From NCBI GenBank assembly GCA_031282065.1, contig JAITEL010000105.1, forward strand, positions 1,772 through 65,771: a DNA stretch of 64,000 bases, in the 5' to 3' direction. A program made the position numbers and the translations under genes. This DNA is from Treponema sp. Lineage in GTDB: Bacteria; Spirochaetota; Spirochaetia; Treponematales; Breznakiellaceae. Below are positions 9,558-62,013 of the stretch, piece by piece. The stretch's first letter is position 1. Each line of letters begins with the position of its first letter. The notes beneath the pieces are model-generated. The model searched no databases, was not told the origin of the DNA, and saw only the letters and a list, made by a program, of their open reading frames with translations.

Positions 9558-9655
9558 CGGGCCCCTTGAACATACTCGGCAAACAGGCCATACTGGTTTG
9601 GGCTTTTTGCAGCGGTGAGGCGCTGCAAAGAACAGCTTATAAAAGGAGAAATACC

Positions 9656-10372
9656 ATGATCGATTACTATGTAAAGCGCAGCGGACTAGAGGGTACAGAA
9701 AACCAGACCTGCCATGCGGTGGTTACCCATACCGAAGGGCTTAGCCAGGAGAACTTCATCAAAATGCTCAGGGAAGTGCTGAACATCAACGAGGGAGAGG
9801 CCAAACGGGTCATAGCAGGCATAGGGACCGCTGCCCGGAACCTCCTGTCCCAGGGCTGGAGCTTCAAGATAGAAGGCATAGGCTCCTTCAGCCTGAGCAT
9901 CACCGGCTCCTTCCCCAGCCCGGACGCTCCCTTTAATGCGGCCACGAACAAAATTGCCGTGCGCTTCCTGGCGGACAAGGAACTCACCGCGGCGGCGCAA
10001 AGCGCGGGCCTGAACCGGCTGCACGGGGTCGAACACGGTCCTGTCATTGATAATGTGGAAGACAAGGCCAGCGCCGCGATAAACGCCAAGCTCACCCCCG
10101 GACACGGAGTCCTGATAAGCGGCAAAGACATCAAGATAAGCGGCACCGACAGTACCGTAGGCATACACCTTATAGACGAATCAGGGAATGCCCTTACGGT
10201 GCCCTCCGGGGACATCCTGGAAAACGGCCCGACCAAACTGCTGTTCATCTGCCCTTCTTTGAGTCCGGGGGTCTATACGATACAAATAAGCACCCAATAT
10301 GCCGGAAGCAAGGAACTGGCCCACCCCCGCTCATACCTTTTTAACGCCCCTTTAACGGTAAGCGCCCCCTAG
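9656..10372 (+). CDS. HU-like DNA-binding domain protein with C-terminal Ig-like region (possibly DUF4469-type)
   Basis: aaaaggag RBS upstream of ATG 9656. The N-terminus resembles the HU/IHF fold pattern: ENFIKMLREVLNINEGEAKRVIAGIGTAARNLLSQGWSFKIEGIGSF. The family name is from memory and was not searched. Confidence 0.55.
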   Translation: MIDYYVKRSGLEGTENQTCHAVVTHTEGLSQENFIKMLREVLNINEGEAKRVIAGIGTAARNLLSQGWSFKIEGIGSFSLSITGSFPSPDAPFNAATNKIAVRFLADKELTAAAQSAGLNRLHGVEHGPVIDNVEDKASAAINAKLTPGHGVLISGKDIKISGTDSTVGIHLIDESGNALTVPSGDILENGPTKLLFICPSLSPGVYTIQISTQYAGSKELAHPRSYLFNAPLTVSAP

Positions 10373-10485
10373 TTAAGGCAAGGCTCTTGTCCTGGTTAAG
10401 ACAAGGCTCTTGTCCTAGTTAAGACAAGGTGCTTGTCCTAGTTAAGGCAAGGCTCTTGTCCCAGTTAAGGCAAGGCTCTTGTCCC
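10371..10485. repeat. 23-bp tandem repeat x5, each unit containing a GACAAG-GCT-CTTGTC type palindrome
   Basis: Units at 10371, 10394, 10417, 10440 and 10463 (agttaaggcaaggctcttgtccc and variants). The array starts inside the stop codon of the upstream gene. Confidence 0.95.
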
Positions 10486-27949: not shown

Positions 27950-29119
27950 ATGGAACACTATTTTATGAATACCTATCACCGGCTGCCGGTAAGCTTTGTT
28001 TCCGGGGAAGGGTCCTGGCTCAAAGACCGGTCCGGGAAAAAGTACCTGGATTTTACCGCGGGTATTGCGGTCAATTGCCTGGGCCATGCCTATCCGCCCC
28101 TGGTTAAGGCCATCGGTGAACAGGCCGCCAAGTTCAACCATGTCTGCAACTATTACCAAAGTGATGTGGCCGAGGCCTTTGCAGAAAAGCTCGTGGCCGC
28201 CTGCGCCCCGGCGGGCATGCGGAAGGTCTTCCTGGGGAATTCCGGCGCAGAGGCCAATGAAGGGGCCTGCAAGATAGCCCGCAAGTATTCCCTCAGGAAG
28301 TACGGCCCCGGACGGCATACCATCGTAAGCCTCAAGGGGAGTTTTCACGGGAGAACCATTACCACCCTCTCGGCCACCGGGCAGGAGCGCTTTCACCAGG
28401 ACTTCGGACCCTTTACCGAAGGCTTCCGTTTCATTGCGCCGGGGGACCTGGACGCCCTGGACCGGGCCTTAGACCCCGACTCTGTGGCAGGGCTGCTCCT
28501 TGAGGCTATTCAGGGGGAAAGGGGCATCTTCCCCCTGGACAGCGCCTATGTACGCGCCGCGGCAGAGCTCTGCAAGGAGCGGGACATACTGCTCATGTTT
28601 GACGAGATCCAGTGCGGCCTGGGCAGGACCGGGACCTTCCTTGCCTGTGCCGGCTATGGGGTCAAGGCCGACATCCTTACCCTGGCAAAGGGCCTGGGCG
28701 GGGGCCTTCCCGTGGGAGCCGTGCTTGCCGGGGACAAGGCTCAGGATGTCTTAGGGATAGGGGACCACGGCAGCACCTTTGGGGGGAATCCCCTGGCCGC
28801 GGCAGCAGGGCTGGTGGTCCTGGAGACGGTCCAGGAGCCGGGCTTTTTAGCGGAGATAGCCCGCAAGGGGGAGCGCTTCCGGGGGGTCCTTTCCGGTTGG
28901 CAGCACCCGCAGATCCGGGAAATCCGGGCTAAGGGCCTTATGATCGGGGTGGATCTCCAGAGCGAAGCCTGGCCGGTCCTGGAAGGGGCCTTGGCCGAAG
29001 GCCTCCTGGTCCTTTCGGCAGGGCCCCATACCCTGCGTTTCCTCCCGCCCTATACCATTAAGGATGCGGAAATAGACCAGGGCTTGGACCTGCTTAAGGG
29101 AGTGCTGGACCGCCTCTAA
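27950..29119 (+). CDS. argD: acetylornithine aminotransferase
   Basis: Class III aminotransferase blocks: LDFTAGIAVNCLGH, LMFDEIQCGLGRTG, TLAKGLGGGLPVGA (PLP Lys), STFGGNPLA. Confidence 0.9.
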   Translation: MEHYFMNTYHRLPVSFVSGEGSWLKDRSGKKYLDFTAGIAVNCLGHAYPPLVKAIGEQAAKFNHVCNYYQSDVAEAFAEKLVAACAPAGMRKVFLGNSGAEANEGACKIARKYSLRKYGPGRHTIVSLKGSFHGRTITTLSATGQERFHQDFGPFTEGFRFIAPGDLDALDRALDPDSVAGLLLEAIQGERGIFPLDSAYVRAAAELCKERDILLMFDEIQCGLGRTGTFLACAGYGVKADILTLAKGLGGGLPVGAVLAGDKAQDVLGIGDHGSTFGGNPLAAAAGLVVLETVQEPGFLAEIARKGERFRGVLSGWQHPQIREIRAKGLMIGVDLQSEAWPVLEGALAEGLLVLSAGPHTLRFLPPYTIKDAEIDQGLDLLKGVLDRL

Positions 29120-30473
29120 GGGCTTTCGCTGAGAACACCGGCTCGGGGCCGGCTTTCGGCAGGGCCGCTTCCCAGCGCCTTTGCAGGGAAGCGGCAGTGG
29201 TCCCGGCATCCTGGCCCTGGATAAACAGGGCGTACAGTTCCTCCCGGACTATGGTCTCCAGGTCATGGAGCTGCGGGAGGCCGGCGAATTCCTGCATCCC
29301 ATCTGCGCCTTCATACATATCATAGGCTTTGGCATACAAAGCCCCTTTAAGGCTCCTGGTCCCGCTCCAGTTTCCCGGCACCGCATGGGAAGCCGCGGCT
29401 ACGAGGGAGCTCTGCTCTGCCAGGAAGGAGATGAAGGCCCAGGCCTGGTCAGGATATTCGGTGTACCGGGAAATACCGGTGTACCAGCTCGTTAAGCCGA
29501 ACACCGGTTTTTTGCCCGTATCCAGGCTGGGGACGGTGGTAATACCGAAGCGCTCATCCCCCATCTCTTGTTGCAGGGTATGGATATCCTGTACCGAGGC
29601 CAGCATCATGGCGATCTTCCCCTGGGCGAAGTCTTGGAGCTTTTGTTCCCGGGTTTTTTCGAACATGTCCGGCGCAAGCAGCTCCTCCTTATACAGGGTA
29701 TGCAGGAAGTCCAGAGTTTCCTGCACAGGAGGGCTGGTGAAGTTGGGTTTGCCTTCTTGCAGCAGGCCCTCCCCGGAAGCCCAGAACCAGGGATACACAT
29801 CCACCGAGAGGCTCTCGGGATCCTGGGGGTTTAGGGCCAGGGCTATCCCGTAGCGGCCGCTTTGGGCATGGGTAATGGCCCGGGCGTAGCGTAAAAAGTC
29901 CGCCCGGGTTTTGGGGGGACGATCAAAGCCCGCCGCTTGCAAGAGTTCCACATGGTAAAACAGGGGAACCATGAAGGAGACCACCGGCAGGGCCCACACT
30001 GCCGGGCTTCCCTGGGCCTCATAGGAGTCTAAGCCCGGAACAAAGGCCCGGTTCTCCCCGGCGCCGGTCTTTTCTCTATAGGCGTCTAAGGGCATAAGCC
30101 TATCCTGCCGGGTGAGTTCAGAGAGCCACCGCAGGTCCAGGGCAAGAATATCCGAGCGGCTTAGGGCGCTGCCATCCCCCGTGAAGAGGCGCTCCTCCAT
30201 TTTCTGATAGGACAGATGCTCCAGTTTGATGGTGATGCCCGGATGCTGCTTCTCGAATTCGTTTACCAGCCGTTTAAGGGCATCTTTTTCGAGGGCCTCC
30301 TGCCACCAGTGGGTAAAGACCAGGGTCCTGGAATGGGCTTCTATGATGGTTTTGGTACCGATTCTGATGAGGAAGCCCAGGGGTAAGAGGATAAGGACTA
30401 AGACAAAGAGAAGCCGGTCCACCACCGCGAGGTTTTTGAGCAGTTTGCTAATCATGGGACTAGTATAGTCCAT
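29094..30473 (-). CDS. ABC transporter extracellular solute-binding protein (family 1, sugar-type), orphan
   Basis: N-terminal TM/signal anchor and the typical SBP_bac_1 pattern FTHWWQEALEKDALKRLVNEFEKQHPGITIKLE. No permease or ATPase gene is adjacent. Confidence 0.75.
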   Translation of the reverse strand: MDYTSPMISKLLKNLAVVDRLLFVLVLILLPLGFLIRIGTKTIIEAHSRTLVFTHWWQEALEKDALKRLVNEFEKQHPGITIKLEHLSYQKMEERLFTGDGSALSRSDILALDLRWLSELTRQDRLMPLDAYREKTGAGENRAFVPGLDSYEAQGSPAVWALPVVSFMVPLFYHVELLQAAGFDRPPKTRADFLRYARAITHAQSGRYGIALALNPQDPESLSVDVYPWFWASGEGLLQEGKPNFTSPPVQETLDFLHTLYKEELLAPDMFEKTREQKLQDFAQGKIAMMLASVQDIHTLQQEMGDERFGITTVPSLDTGKKPVFGLTSWYTGISRYTEYPDQAWAFISFLAEQSSLVAAASHAVPGNWSGTRSLKGALYAKAYDMYEGADGMQEFAGLPQLHDLETIVREELYALFIQGQDAGTTAASLQRRWEAALPKAGPEPVFSAKALRGGPALP

Positions 30474-30551
30474 ACCGGGGAGCCCCTATCAAGTATGAAG
30501 CTGAGGGGCAAGGCTTTTGGTAGAAGCTGAGCCCGGTTTCCGGGTCTTCCG

Positions 30552-30795
30552 TAAAGGTTTTACCGGCCCCCCGCAAAGTTCTACCGGTACCCAAAAATAT
30601 TTTACAGGTACCCTAAAAAGTTTTATCGGTACCCCAAAAAGTTTTACAGGTACCCTGCAAATTTCTATAGGCCCCCCATAAAGTTTTATCGGTACCCAAA
30701 AATATTTTACCGGCTCCCCACAAAGTTCTACCGGTACCCCTGAAACTTTTATCGGCCCCCCAAAAAGATTTTAAGCCGGCTAAAAAAGGCTTTGA
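30552..30795. repeat. about 21-22-bp tandem repeat, about 11 copies, with phased A/T tracts
   Basis: Units are of the type aaaaagttttaYcggtacccc. Each has an A/T tract of about 10 bp and a GC-rich half containing accggt/ggtacc palindromes. Confidence 0.9.
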
Positions 30796-30891
30796 GGCGA
30801 CATCGAAAACCTTTGGGGCAGCTCGGCCTCTTTACAGAAGCCCCGCTTCTCAGTATGATAGAAGCTTCCATATTAATAAGGAAGGATCATT

Positions 30892-31083
30892 ATGTCACGT
30901 GTATGCGATATTTGTGGAAAACACACCATTACCGGAAACAAGGTAAGCCATGCCAAAAACCATACCCGCCGTACCTGGCGGCCCAATCTGGTGAAGGTAA
31001 AAACCGAGGTACAGGGTACCACCCTGACGATTAAAATCTGCGCCCGCTGTCTTAAAAGCGATATTATCAAGAAAAAAGTATAA
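30892..31083 (+). CDS. rpmB: 50S ribosomal protein L28
   Basis: [33 protein letters not shown] is the canonical L28 sequence. Confidence 0.95.
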
Positions 31084-49946: not shown

Positions 49947-50394
49947 TTATGGAATGACGGCCGAAGCGACCGGCCCCCCCCATTGTCCGGCCTCGCCCCG
50001 CCGGTTCTCGTAGCGGCAGCACACGTAGGCCGTCTTGCCCGCGTCCTCCGCGTCAAACAAACCGTAGGTTTGTAGCAAACTCCGAATGCCAGCGCTACGC
50101 GCTGGCAGGATTGCTTCGGGCTTCGCCCTCGCAATGACGACTTTCCCACAACGCCCCCTCGTCATTGCGAGCACAACGCAAAGCGTTGCCCCGAAGCAAT
50201 CCACGATTACGGAATCACCGCCGAAGCCACCGGCCCCCACTGGCCCCGCAATGACGACCTTTCCGCTACGCCCCTCGTCCTATCCCCGCTCTGGGCTATG
50301 AGACTACCACTTTCCTCGCAATGACGCCCTTCCCTCAACGCCTCCCTCGTCATTGCGAGCACAACGCAAAGCATTGCCCCGAAGCAATCCACGA
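49947..50394. repeat. duplicated 3' gene fragments interleaved with nested palindromic (REP/MITE-like) elements
   Basis: The 3' end of the 50395-51117 gene recurs at 49947 (about 115 bp, diverged) and at 50207 (about 38 bp). A 95-nt nested palindrome lies at 50108-50202, with partial copies at about 50245-50285 and about 50313-50392. Confidence 0.85.
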
Positions 50395-51117
50395 TTACGG
50401 AATCACCGCGCTCGCTACCGGCCCCCACTGGCCGGCCTCGCCCTTGCGGTTCTCGTAGCGGCAGCATACGTAGGCCGTCATGCCCGCGTCCTCCGCATCA
50501 AACAGCAGCTTCTCCTTACGCCGCCGGGTAAACCGGTAGTGCGAAAGGCCCTTCCCGTCCGCGGGAACCTTCATCAGGTAGTGCTTGTCCGACGCCGCCT
50601 GTTCCAGGGTGGCTCCTCCGGGAGGCATGATGCCCAGATAGACCACATAGCCGTAGTCGCTTTCGGGAGCCAGCTCCAGAGTTCCCGCCAGGGGTCCCAG
50701 ATGGAGCGTCATGGCGTGGGGCCCGCCGGGGTAGCTCAAAGACGCCGCAGGCACACCGTCGGGGGCGGGAGCGGGCGAGGGGTGGGTGTCCTTGGGGCGG
50801 AAGCCCAGAGCGGCCCAGTCTCCTTCGGTAAGGGGCGGTATCTTGAAGTACCGGTCCCGGAAGAACCGCATCTTTGCCTCCAGCGCCTTAAACGCCTCCT
50901 GGCACTCCACGGTAATGACGCGGGTCCGCTCCGCATCGTTTTGCGCCTTCTGGAGCAGGTCTTGCGCCGTGGAACACAGGCTCTCCAGTTCCGTAAACTC
51001 CGCCTCGGGCACTCCCCAGGCGGTCCGCCTTGCCGCCGTCAGGTACAGAATCCAGCTCAGACACATTGCCAGGATTCCCGTCCGGGGTCCCGGCATCCAA
51101 TCGGTGTTTTTTGCCAT
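50395..51117 (-). CDS. hypothetical protein, 240 aa
   Basis: GAGGAG RBS upstream of ATG 51117. No motif recognised. The C-terminal half looks beta-rich and ends in VCCRYENRKGEAGQWGPVASAVIP. Confidence 0.6.
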   Translation of the reverse strand: MAKNTDWMPGPRTGILAMCLSWILYLTAARRTAWGVPEAEFTELESLCSTAQDLLQKAQNDAERTRVITVECQEAFKALEAKMRFFRDRYFKIPPLTEGDWAALGFRPKDTHPSPAPAPDGVPAASLSYPGGPHAMTLHLGPLAGTLELAPESDYGYVVYLGIMPPGGATLEQAASDKHYLMKVPADGKGLSHYRFTRRRKEKLLFDAEDAGMTAYVCCRYENRKGEAGQWGPVASAVIP

Positions 51118-51139
51118 AGCGTTCTCCTCTCTATATGGA

Positions 51140-51167
51140 AACGAATATTTCATTCGTTAAAACGAAT
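51140..51167. promoter_or_regulatory. palindrome AACGAAT-ATTTC-ATTCGTT plus a third AACGAAT half-site upstream of the 240-aa gene
   Basis: Read directly at 51140-51158 and 51161-51167, 23-50 nt upstream of ATG 51117. Confidence 0.3.
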
Positions 51168-51195
51168 GACCTAAACGGTGAAAGGGCTGAGTCAA

Positions 51196-51447
51196 AAGTT
51201 GAAACTTCTGACCCGGAAATTGAAACTAATGACTTGGGATTTGAAAATTCTGACTCAGAAATTGAAAATCCTGACCTGGGATTTGAAACTAATGACTTGG
51301 GATTTGAAAATTCTGACTCAGAAATTGAAAATCCTGAGCCGGGATTTGAAACTTTTGAGCCGGGATTTGAAAATTCTGACTCAGAAGTTGAAAATCCTGA
51401 CCTGAGATTTGAAAATCCTGACTTAAAAATTATAAGGGCTGACCTGT
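51196..51447. repeat. 21-bp tandem repeat, about 12 copies, core TTGAAAAYYCTGAC
   Basis: Exact 21-bp register from 51196, e.g. gatttgaaaattctgactcag / aaattgaaaatcctgacctgg / gatttgaaactaatgacttgg. Confidence 0.95.
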
Positions 51448-51542
51448 CCGGTACACCGAATGAGTAGCTTTGACCTAGTTTTGGGGGATTGGGATCAAGC
51501 TGCGGTTTGTCCGCATACAAAAGCGGGGAATCAGTTAGGTAC

Positions 51543-51573
51543 TTGACACACCGTCTTCTTAATAGAATATAAT
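51543..51573 (+). promoter_or_regulatory. consensus sigma70-type hexamers TTGACA and TATAAT with a 19-bp spacer
   Basis: TTGACA at 51543-51548 and TATAAT at 51568-51573. The spacer is longer than the 17-bp optimum. Confidence 0.35.
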
Positions 51574-51636
51574 CGTGAGCCGTGAGCCGTGAGCCGTGAG
51601 CCGTGAGCCGTGAGCCGTGAGCCGTGAGCCGTGAGC
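51574..51636. repeat. (CGTGAGC)9 heptanucleotide microsatellite
   Basis: Nine perfect copies, counted directly, starting immediately after the TATAAT hexamer. Confidence 0.95.
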
Positions 51637-51795
51637 CGGAGGGCCTGTTCTGTCTTGTTACCTGCCGGTTTCAAAAGCATGAAAGTATTCTAAATACTTA
51701 CATAAAGAATGTCAAGCAAAAAATACTTCCTTTCCTTATCACTAGCCTCAAGTCCCCCCGGAATTTTGTCCAGACCATCGTGTTCTAGAAGCAAA

Positions 51796-51830
51796 GGCCG
51801 CTTCGCTAAGATGGCGGGGCGGCCCTTTTT
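51796..51830. terminator. bidirectional terminator hairpin between the candidate plus-strand transcript and thrC
   Basis: ggccgc (51796-51801) pairs with gcggcc (51819-51824). On the plus strand it is followed by cttttta. On the minus strand it follows the thrC stop and is followed by tttg. Confidence 0.5.
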
Positions 51831-61750: not shown

Positions 61751-61824
61751 ATGTTTCTCCTCTTGCTATGACCTTAGCACCAAGGGACATGAGGGTCAAG
61801 GGAAGCGGGAACTCCTCCGGGGAT

Positions 61825-62013
61825 GGGTGTGGAACTTTCAAGTCCGGGTGTGGAACTTTCAAATTTGGGTGTGAAACTTCCAAATTTGGGTATGAAACTT
61901 CCAAACCTGGGTGCGGAACTTCCAAACCTGGGTGTGAAACTTCCAAATCCGGGTGTGGAACTTTCAAATTTGGGTATGGAACTTTCAAACCCGGGTGTGG
62001 AACTTCCGGGGAC
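61825..62013. repeat. 21-bp tandem repeat x9 upstream of gltD
   Basis: Exact 21-bp register from 61825: gggtgtggaactttcaagtcc / gggtgtggaactttcaaattt / gggtgtgaaacttccaaattt and so on. Degenerate copies flank it on both sides. Confidence 0.95.

What the first reader, a model, noticed from the sequence alone, without database searches (positions are those of the whole stretch)
30552..30795. About eleven tandem copies of a 21-22-bp unit with phased A-tracts in a divergent promoter region
The gap lies between the orphan sugar-type SBP gene (start 30473, minus strand) and rpmB (start 30892, plus strand). It is filled by repeats of the type aaaaagttttaYcggtacccc. Each unit alternates an A/T tract of about 10 bp with a GC-rich half carrying overlapping accggt and ggtacc palindromes. 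A period of about 21 bp is two helical turns, so every A-tract and every palindrome lies on the same face of the helix. That is the geometry expected for strong intrinsic curvature or for cooperative binding of a protein array. The array ends about 97 bp upstream of the rpmB start codon. No convincing ORF explains it.
Basis: seen in the sequence. Interest (0 to 1): 0.6.

Follow-up and report, generated by a model that had tools for sequence, protein, structure and literature searches.

The report
Orphan 21-bp minisatellite upstream of rpmB
The run of ten 21-base repeats between a sugar-binding-protein gene and rpmB is real, but it is a stray copy of about 100 such arrays in this termite-gut Treponema genome, whose usual place is in front of a multicopy gene of unknown function. 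It is not a conserved rpmB control site, though the class is unusual because the repeat length is kept while the sequence is not.

Summary
Observation confirmed. There are ten head-to-tail units in an exact 21-bp register (30552-30761), with two decayed units on each side, and a second assembler reproduces them exactly.

The array is not unique. This 2.65-Mb draft has 396 tandem-repeat loci, with sharp peaks at period 21 (127), 23 (90) and 24 (28).

Period-21 arrays have a home: 22 of 101 lie directly upstream of a multicopy 220-250-aa gene, here called X (helical hairpin plus FN3-like domain, no Pfam hit). None of the 87 period-23 or period-24 arrays do. In other genomes of the family, 13 of 15 X loci also carry an exactly 21-bp-spaced array, each with a different unit.

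The rpmB array has two sister arrays, one upstream of an intact X and one upstream of an X remnant. It has no X itself, and its flanks are unique.

It lies between two conserved core promoters, at a gene junction that only this species has. Congeners lack it.

A wedge model predicts strong curvature, but random 21-bp tandems are just as curved.

Verdict: an orphan member of a lineage-specific minisatellite class that is coupled to a gene family. It is not a dedicated rpmB regulator. A protein-binding role is not excluded.

The parts
30552..30761 (.). Ten tandem 21-bp units in exact register, consensus AAAAAGTTTTACCGGTACCCC
   Evidence: TRF; rows of 21; column statistics; identical in the Logan contig
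30516..30551 (.). Two decayed units continuing the 21-bp register on the left (62-70% identity to the reference copy over its whole length)
   Evidence: the repeat finder family D1
30762..30802 (.). Two decayed units on the right (AAAAAGATTTTAAGCCGGCTA, AAAAAGGCTTTGAGGCGA)
30806..30821 (.). Inverted partial unit (AAAACCTTTGGGGCAG), 81% complementary to 30546-30561. It is a possible end mark, but may be chance.
   Evidence: the repeat finder pair I4
30831..30859 (+). rpmB core promoter, TTTACA-N17-TATGAT, conserved in four congeners
   Evidence: promoter scan; five-species alignment, invariant from CTTTACAGAA to the ATG
30892..31083 (+). rpmB (ribosomal protein L28, 63 aa)
   Evidence: PF00830
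30462..30492 (-). Inferred SBP promoter, TTGATA-N19-TATACT, ending 6 nt before the ATG at 30455. Both hexamers and the spacing are kept in congener G003.
   Evidence: read; inference, not found by the scan because the spacer is 19 nt
29094..30473 (-). Solute-binding-protein gene. This is the longest ORF; the start conserved with G003 is 30455.
   Evidence: PF01547, PF13416
51199..51422 (.). Class member in its home position: a 21-bp array (10.7 copies, unit TTGAAAATTCTGACCCGGGAT) directly upstream of an X gene
50395..51117 (-). X gene (240 aa): N-terminal helical hairpin plus C-terminal FN3-like sandwich. No Pfam, NCBIfam or PADLOC hit.
61824..62007 (.). Another orphan 21-bp array (8.8 copies). 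Of its two sister arrays, the one on C133 lies upstream of an X gene; the one on C73 does not.
10368..10484 (.). A 23-bp palindromic array that starts at the stop codon of an HU-like gene (family Y, 9566-10372). This is the second gene-coupled array class.

Best explanation
The array is a non-coding minisatellite. It is an orphan copy of a class of period-21 tandem arrays specific to termite-gut Treponema.

The home position of that class is the 5' region of a multicopy gene, X (220-250 aa, helical hairpin plus FN3-like domain, function unknown). There the period is kept across genera while the unit sequence drifts until unrecognisable.

The two sister arrays of this unit family sit in that position. 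One lies upstream of an intact X and one upstream of a decayed X remnant.

At this locus the array stands alone, about 100 to 310 bp upstream of both start sites. It lies between the conserved core promoters of the SBP gene and of rpmB, at a gene junction found only in this species.

Shown: the anatomy, the class, the link to X, the absence from congeners, and the predicted bend.

Inferred: the array arrived with, or was copied from, an X-type upstream region. It is kept in register by slippage or unequal exchange. Any influence on the two promoters is a physical by-product of a 21-bp (two-turn) period, which adds each unit's small bend in one plane. It is not a regulatory site evolved for rpmB.
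For: Class:
- 396 tandem loci in the genome, with peaks at period 21 (127), 23 (90) and 24 (28), against 3, 10 and 1 loci at periods 20, 22 and 25.
- Arrays of period 20-24 cover 1.5% of the genome.

Family:
- The array clusters with C162:7029-7218 (78% identity) and C65:4748-4914 (81%).
- Both sister arrays have the layout: 115-nt dispersed module, then array, then TTTACA-N17-TATAGT promoter, then X or an X remnant.

Link to X:
- 22 of 101 period-21 arrays have X directly downstream, against 0 of 87 period-23 or period-24 arrays (Fisher p = 6e-7).
- 13 of 15 X loci in other genomes of the family carry an exactly 21-bp-spaced array upstream, each with a different unit.
- Unit distance tracks X divergence (Spearman -0.52, p = 1.5e-8). 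Below 40% X identity the units are as unlike as random, yet the period is still 21.

Orphan status:
- Both flanks are unique in the genome.
- The array's 69% matches are among the 10 lowest of 101 arrays, whose median is 83%.

Not conserved at this locus:
- Six congeners have no array next to the SBP orthologue.
- G003 has a kinase gene in place of rpmB upstream of SBP.
- Four congeners share the rpmB promoter only from the -35 hexamer onwards.
- G007 has an unrelated array (43-bp unit, 4.1 copies) at that position.

Curvature is generic to period 21. The arrays are not coding.
Against: - Variation inside the array is strongly column-specific. Eleven columns are invariant, and several variable columns carry two or three different bases, which points to repeated hits at the same positions. 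This looks like constraint, not free decay.
- No indel has broken the register despite 31% divergence.
- The AAAAAGTTTTA half recurs in period-21 arrays of three other genera.
- Period-21 arrays are about two-fold depleted in convergent gaps (6 of 75, p = 0.017). That suggests a preference for gene-upstream positions.
- No remnant of X, and no trace of how the array arrived, was found at this locus.
Confidence: 0.6

Rival explanations
1. Protein-binding array. Each 21-bp unit is one binding site. A protein polymerises along one face of the helix, as Rep proteins do on plasmid iterons or ParR on parC. The protein could be a nucleoid-associated protein or a product of the array-linked gene families. 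The filament would organise or silence the divergent promoter region.
For: - Eleven invariant columns at fixed spacing (AA..TT.TA..GG..CCC) against ten freely varying ones.
- Exact register with no indels.
- The AAAAAGTTTTA core is shared by arrays in other genera.
- At class level, the period is tied to the neighbouring gene family: 21 bp with X, and 22-23 bp with Y. Y is an HU-type DNA-binding protein.
Against: - The X model shows a helical hairpin plus an FN3-like fold, with no DNA-binding domain.
- X paralogues that are 85-97% identical carry clearly different units.
- About 45-55 unit families exist for period 21 alone, too many for one sequence-specific binder.
- No candidate binder gene lies next to this array.
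- The palindromes are not conserved.
Confidence: 0.25
2. Selected curved-DNA or UP-like activator. The phased A/T tracts bend the DNA so that upstream DNA wraps back onto RNA polymerase and raises transcription of rpmB, of the SBP gene, or of both.
For: - Predicted end-to-end/contour ratio of 0.488 and an overall bend of about 164 degrees, more extreme than 99.97% of genome windows.
- The core AAAAAGTTTTA resembles the distal UP subsite AWWWWWTTTTT (from memory).
- The array sits between two divergent promoters.
Against: - Random 21-bp tandems are equally curved.
- The nearest intact unit is about 100 bp upstream of either start site, outside the UP-element position of -40 to -60.
- Four congeners run the same conserved rpmB promoter without the array.
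- Sister arrays serve a different gene.
Confidence: 0.1
3. Contingency spacer. Copy number changes often by slippage. Because each step is two helical turns, this changes the distance between the two promoters, or between them and upstream sites, without changing their phase. The result is heritable variation in expression.
For: - Tandem arrays of this kind are slippage-prone in general (established knowledge).
- Higher-order 42- and 63-bp periods show block duplications.
- Many arrays end contigs, which suggests assembly trouble or heterogeneity.
Against: - The units are only 69% alike, which makes slippage inefficient.
- The only other assembly has the same copy number.
- The array lies outside both core promoters.
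- Copy-number polymorphism could not be tested.
Confidence: 0.08
4. Non-autonomous mobile element of the BrickBuilt type. The array is the body of a MITE with short terminal inverted repeats, and it transposed into this gap.
For: - A 16-nt inverted repeat, 81% complementary, brackets the array.
- The sister arrays carry a 115-nt module present about 80 times in the genome.
- The published precedent is a 23-nt minisatellite inside a MITE (PMC4596501).
Against: - Neither flank of this array resembles any other array flank or any other place in the genome.
- The inverted repeat is only an inverted partial unit.
- No target-site duplication and no related transposase end were found.
Confidence: 0.07

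Closest known systems
BrickBuilt minisatellite MITE of Porphyromonas gingivalis (PMC4596501)
   Same: Tandem units of about 21-23 nt without spacers. The elements are dispersed, always intergenic and imperfect, with conserved and variable positions within the unit. Some copies lack the flanking parts.
   Different: - BrickBuilt has one unit family, leader and tail segments with IS5-like inverted ends, and 19 copies.
- Here there are dozens of unrelated unit families with quantised periods (21, 23, 24) and no shared ends at this locus.
- Here the arrays are coupled to particular gene families.
MIRU-type mycobacterial interspersed repetitive units and other intergenic VNTR minisatellites
   Same: Lineage-specific intergenic tandem repeats scattered over the chromosome. 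They evolve by gain and loss of units and mostly have no shown function.
   Different: - MIRU units are 46-101 bp, belong to a few related families and sit inside operons.
- They show no sharp period peaks at 21/23/24 bp and no link to a multicopy gene.
Plasmid iterons and parC-type centromere arrays (Rep or ParR binding sites)
   Same: Direct repeats spaced at about two helical turns, lying next to the gene whose product uses them. The sequence is specific to each replicon while the spacing is conserved.
   Different: - No rep or par gene, origin features or plasmid context is present.
- The neighbouring X protein has no recognisable DNA-binding fold.
- There are about 100 arrays per chromosome.
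Phased A-tract curved DNA and UP elements upstream of bacterial promoters
   Same: An A/T tract is repeated in helical phase upstream of promoters, and the predicted planar bend is strong.
   Different: - There is one A/T tract per two turns.
- The array lies 100-310 bp upstream rather than at -40 to -60.
- It is not conserved with the promoter.
- Its curvature is no greater than that of random 21-bp tandems.

Membership tests
BrickBuilt-type minisatellite MITE | Tandem units of about 23 nt without spacers, multicopy and intergenic | tested here: met
   Ten 21-bp units without spacers; two sister arrays; intergenic
BrickBuilt-type minisatellite MITE | Leader and tail segments shared between copies | tested here: not met
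   The flanks of this array match no other array flank and nothing else in the genome. The sister arrays share a 115-nt module on one side only.
BrickBuilt-type minisatellite MITE | Terminal inverted repeats related to an IS family, and target-site duplication | tested here: inconclusive
   There is one 16-nt inverted repeat, 81% complementary, which is an inverted partial unit. No duplication of the target was seen. No IS comparison was made.
Plasmid iterons / partition centromere arrays | Direct repeats spaced about two helical turns apart | tested here: met
   Spacing is exactly 21 bp across ten units
Plasmid iterons / partition centromere arrays | An adjacent gene for the binding protein (Rep, ParR or similar), or an origin context | tested here: not met
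   The neighbours are an SBP gene and rpmB. At the sister loci the neighbour is X, which has no DNA-binding fold.
Phased A-tract curved DNA / UP element | A/T tracts in phase with the helix, and predicted or measured curvature | tested here: met
   Invariant A3A4 and T7T8 at 21-bp spacing; model ratio 0.488, top 0.03% of genome windows.
Phased A-tract curved DNA / UP element | Position at -40 to -60 and conservation with the promoter it serves | tested here: not met
   The last intact unit ends about 70 bp upstream of the -35 hexamer. Congeners keep the promoter but not the array.
Phase-variable contingency repeat | Repeat tract inside a core promoter or reading frame, with copy number varying between cells or strains | tested here: inconclusive
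   The array lies outside both core promoters. The one other assembly has the same copy number. The read-level test was unavailable.
CRISPR array | Repeats separated by unique spacers | tested here: not met
   The units abut with no spacers
X-type period-21 array class (defined here) | Period of exactly 21 bp, non-coding, with unit family shared with arrays upstream of X genes | tested here: met
X-type period-21 array class (defined here) | An X gene directly downstream | tested here: not met
   rpmB occupies that place, and no X remnant is present. The array is therefore filed as an orphan of the class.

The most novel reading that the evidence does not exclude
In termite-gut Treponema, tandem arrays with a fixed period but free sequence are obligatory cis-partners of particular multicopy genes. 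Period 21 bp (two helical turns) lies in the 5' region or leader of X genes. Period 22-23 bp lies at the 3' end of HU-like Y genes.

On this reading selection acts on the period and on the presence of the array, not on its sequence. That would be a new kind of gene-coupled architectural DNA (or RNA-leader) element. A protein may polymerise on it, or it may work through geometry alone.

Orphans such as the rpmB array would then be either active nucleation sites placed next to housekeeping promoters or relics.
Probability: 0.3. Interest if true: 0.8.

Novelty: new variant of a known kind. Interest (0 to 1): 0.55.

Why it matters
On its own the rpmB array is probably a bystander. It does expose a pattern that I could not find described in the paper searches I ran.

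The pattern is a bacterial genome in which 1.5% of the DNA is minisatellite with sharply quantised periods. Two of those periods are tied, across many genera, to two multicopy gene families.

A period that survives while the unit sequence is completely replaced means one of two things. Either the arrays persist for very long times under selection for their presence, or the geometry itself is selected.

Either outcome would bear on three questions: how repeats are born and kept in bacteria, what the X and HU-like Y families do, and why MAG assemblies of these spirochaetes break where they do.

It also gives annotators a practical rule. These arrays open spurious reading frames, and they mark the starts of X genes.

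Tried and rejected
- **Rfam.** No family matched in the window (gathering thresholds). None matched in six loci holding the 115-nt module and the sister arrays (E up to 1).
- **Coding heptad repeats.** Rejected. Column variability has no period-3 component in 51 arrays (share 0.099 against a null of 0.100). X has its own conserved Shine-Dalgarno sequence and ATG.
- **Unit search in GTDB species genomes.** An exact-pattern scan gave only single chance hits in unrelated phyla.
- **Strain variants.** The metagenome scan with the SBP protein found nothing close. An exact-protein look-up of L28 gave one contig, identical to the window.
- **Array-mediated rearrangement.** The G000 orthologue of the gene that precedes SBP in G003 lies on contig C44. 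It is followed by a gene I read as asnS, with no array at that junction. This gives no support to the idea.
- **Identity of X.** No hit in Pfam, PHROGs (one weak hit, E = 0.0075), NCBIfam, PADLOC or PDB sequence profiles. The fold search found only FN3 for the C-terminal half.
- **RNA folding.** The array is only mildly more structured than shuffles (z = -2.2 and -2.8), less so than the period-23 and period-24 arrays.
- **First multi-locus repeat scan.** With a distance cap it returned nothing, for technical reasons. It was repeated without the cap.
- **Literature.** Searches for Treponema tandem repeats found nothing specific. One search led to BrickBuilt.

Full report
**1.

Tandem Repeats Finder (TRF) reports a period-21 array at 30553-30773: 10.5 copies, 69% matches, no indels, with a 63-bp higher-order period. 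Written in rows of 21 from 30552, ten units stay in exact register. Two decayed units follow on the right, and two more continue the register on the left from 30516.

The 38 departures from the consensus AAAAAGTTTTACCGGTACCCC fall in 10 columns. Eleven columns never vary: A3 A4 T7 T8 T10 A11 G14 G15 C18-20. Random placement never gave this pattern in 100,000 trials.

GGTACC is present in 6 of 10 units and ACCGGT in only 2 of 10.

A Logan contig from run SRR14710905 has the same 461 bp at 100% identity.

**2. The surroundings**

rpmB has a promoter-like site, TTTACA-N17-TATGAT, at 30831-30859. In an alignment with four congeners, everything from CTTTACAGAA to the ATG is conserved and nothing upstream of it is.

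The SBP gene probably starts at 30455, the start shared with congener G003. It is preceded by TTGATA-N19-TATACT, and both hexamers and the spacing are kept in G003 (read; inference).

The array therefore fills the middle of the roughly 340 bp between two conserved, divergent core promoters. Its intact units lie about 100 to 310 bp upstream of each start site.

**3. The array is not conserved**

- Six congeners, whose SBP orthologues are 63-75% identical, have no array beside that gene.
- In G003 the gene upstream of SBP is a kinase-like gene, not rpmB. The SBP-rpmB junction is therefore specific to this species.
- G007 has an unrelated array (43-bp unit, 4.1 copies) upstream of its rpmB promoter.

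**4. The array is one of a class**

The window itself holds two more period-21 arrays and two period-23 arrays.

Over the whole 2.65-Mb draft (179 contigs, 53.5% G+C), TRF finds 396 tandem-repeat loci:

| Period (bp) | Loci |
|---|---|
| 19 | 3 |
| 20 | 3 |
| 21 | 127 |
| 22 | 10 |
| 23 | 90 |
| 24 | 28 |
| 25 | 1 |

The 193 arrays of period 20-24 with at least three copies cover 39.3 kb, or 1.5% of the genome. They fall into about 87 sequence clusters.

Most units have a near relative elsewhere in the genome. For 59 of 100 period-21 units, the nearest neighbour differs at no more than 4 positions; shuffled units essentially never come that close.

The organism is a termite-gut Treponema, judged from the source names of close protein homologues.

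**5. The home of the period-21 arrays**

The rpmB array clusters with two others, C162:7029-7218 and C65:4748-4914, at 78% and 81% identity. Both have the same layout:
- a 115-nt dispersed module ending in the hairpin GGGGGGCC-TTTC-GGCCCCCC (about 80 copies in the genome, no Rfam match);
- then the array;
- then a TTTACA-N17-TATAGT promoter;
- then a gene, here called X.

X is intact on C65 (222 aa) and reduced to a remnant on C162.

X is a family of 220-250-aa proteins. The N-terminus is conserved (MA...DW.P..R) and so is the C-terminus (...C.YEN.KG..G.WG...A.IP). About 40 loci are found in this genome. The window's array at 51.2 kb lies directly upstream of one of them.

- Of 101 period-21 arrays, 22 have X directly downstream. 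None of the 87 period-23 or period-24 arrays do (Fisher p = 6e-7).
- X occurs in 41 of 101 sampled genomes and 28 of 66 genera of the family, often in many copies.
- In 13 of 15 X loci taken from other genomes, an array with exactly 21-bp spacing lies directly upstream, each with a different unit.
- Within this genome, unit distance rises as the X proteins diverge (Spearman -0.52, p = 1.5e-8). Below 40% X identity the units are as unlike as random 21-mers, yet the period is still 21.
- In many loci the array ends only 11-40 nt before the ATG. In the window a strong minus-strand promoter (TTGACA-N17-TAGAAT, 51715-51687) points through the array towards X. At those loci the array is probably part of the 5' leader (inference).

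**6. What X is**

X has no hit in Pfam, NCBIfam or PADLOC. An AlphaFold model (pLDDT 74.5; about 90 for most of the N-terminal 100 residues) shows a helical hairpin followed by a beta sandwich. The sandwich matches fibronectin type III domains (E about 5e-4). Nothing suggests DNA binding.

X copies are up to 89% identical between genera, whereas the SBP orthologues of the same two genomes are 44% identical. This suggests that the X cassette moves between lineages.

**7. A second gene-coupled class**

A 23-bp array in the window begins at the stop codon of a gene with HU-HIG and DUF4469 domains, here called family Y.

- In this genome 5 of 10 Y loci have a 23-bp array right after the gene.
- In other genomes 7 of 11 Y loci have a 22-23-bp array there, again each with a different unit.

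The period therefore goes with the neighbouring gene family.

**8. Curvature**

A dinucleotide wedge model was used, with parameters recalled from memory. It reproduces the classical result that A4T4 is curved and T4A4 straight. For the array it gives an end-to-end/contour ratio of 0.488 and an overall bend of about 164 degrees. That is more extreme than 99.97% of genome windows and than all 500 shuffles.

However, random perfect 21-bp tandems have a mean ratio of 0.868, against 0.895 for the real period-21 arrays. Period-23 and period-24 tandems, real or random, are straight. Predicted curvature thus follows from a two-turn period and does not by itself indicate selection.

**9. Other tests**

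- Column variability in 51 indel-free period-21 arrays shows no period-3 signal, so the arrays do not encode heptad peptides.
- The array is only mildly self-complementary as RNA.
- Both flanks are unique in the genome.
- Period-21 arrays are about two-fold depleted in convergent gaps (6 of 75, p = 0.017). Period-23 arrays are not.

**10. Reading**

The best-supported account is that this is an orphan member of the X-type period-21 class, sitting at a species-specific junction. It is less homogeneous than most of its class: its 69% matches are among the 10 lowest of 101. The C162 locus shows the likely path, with the array kept while X decays.

The array is not a conserved regulator of rpmB. 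If it acts at all, it most likely acts physically, as a bent spacer of about 290 bp between two promoters.

The strongest point against a pure bystander is the column-specific conservation and the unbroken register. These keep a protein-array reading alive (confidence about 0.25).

The published element most like it is the BrickBuilt minisatellite MITE of Porphyromonas gingivalis (PMC4596501). The defining leader and tail segments are absent here, so it is not filed as a member.

**11. Limits**

- The genome is a fragmented MAG.
- The gene calls used for the context statistics are crude ORF calls.
- The relatives are species representatives at 60-75% protein identity, not strains.

Noticed in passing
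window 9566-10484, and loci L060, L063, L064, L066, L068, L070, L072: HU-like genes (HU-HIG plus DUF4469) are followed, starting at or within a few bases of the stop codon, by 22-23-bp palindromic tandem arrays with a different unit at each locus. This holds for 5 of 10 loci in this genome and 7 of 11 in other genera.
   Followed up: partly
L018 810-1022 (G000 C162:6809-7022); L019; L020: A 115-nt dispersed module ending in the hairpin GGGGGGCC-TTTC-GGCCCCCC occurs about 80 times in the genome. It often abuts tandem arrays of unrelated units and periods. It has no Rfam match.
   Followed up: partly
L020 (G000 C142:8744-9417); also C23, C86, C6: The 115-nt module alternates in tandem with a palindromic element of about 100 nt (GTCATTGCGAGGGCGAAGC...GCTTCGCTGCGCTGGCAATGAC), forming runs of three or four module-palindrome pairs. 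The nature of this element is unknown.
   Followed up: no
window 51543-51715: Two strong promoters face each other across a perfect (CGTGAGC)9 heptamer run. One is TTGACA/TATAAT on the plus strand at 51543-51573. The other is TTGACA-N17-TAGAAT on the minus strand at 51715-51687, which points through the 21-bp array to X. The segment is part of the dispersed X cassette and looks like a slippage-controlled switch.
   Followed up: no
window 49947-51800: The X gene, its array and about 380 bp beyond it form a dispersed repeat of about 1.85 kb with 8-10 copies in the genome. Its 3' side carries duplicated fragments of the X C-terminus interleaved with palindromic elements.
   Followed up: partly
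L044 (G013 C21) against window 50395-51117: X copies are up to 89% identical between different genera, while the SBP orthologues of the same two genomes are 44% identical. This suggests horizontal movement of the X cassette.
   Followed up: no
L016 266-443 (G007): A congener has an unrelated array (43-bp unit, 4.1 copies) in the same position, just upstream of its conserved rpmB promoter.
   Followed up: partly
window 30455-30473: The longest ORF of the SBP gene starts at 30473. The start conserved with G003 is the ATG at 30455, only 6 nt after a conserved TATACT hexamer, so the mRNA may be leaderless.
   Followed up: no
whole genome (table): Because 21 is a multiple of three, the arrays often leave frames open. 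This inflates ORF calls upstream of X (open frames of 300-900 aa for a 240-aa protein) and produces spurious ORFs across the arrays.
   Followed up: no
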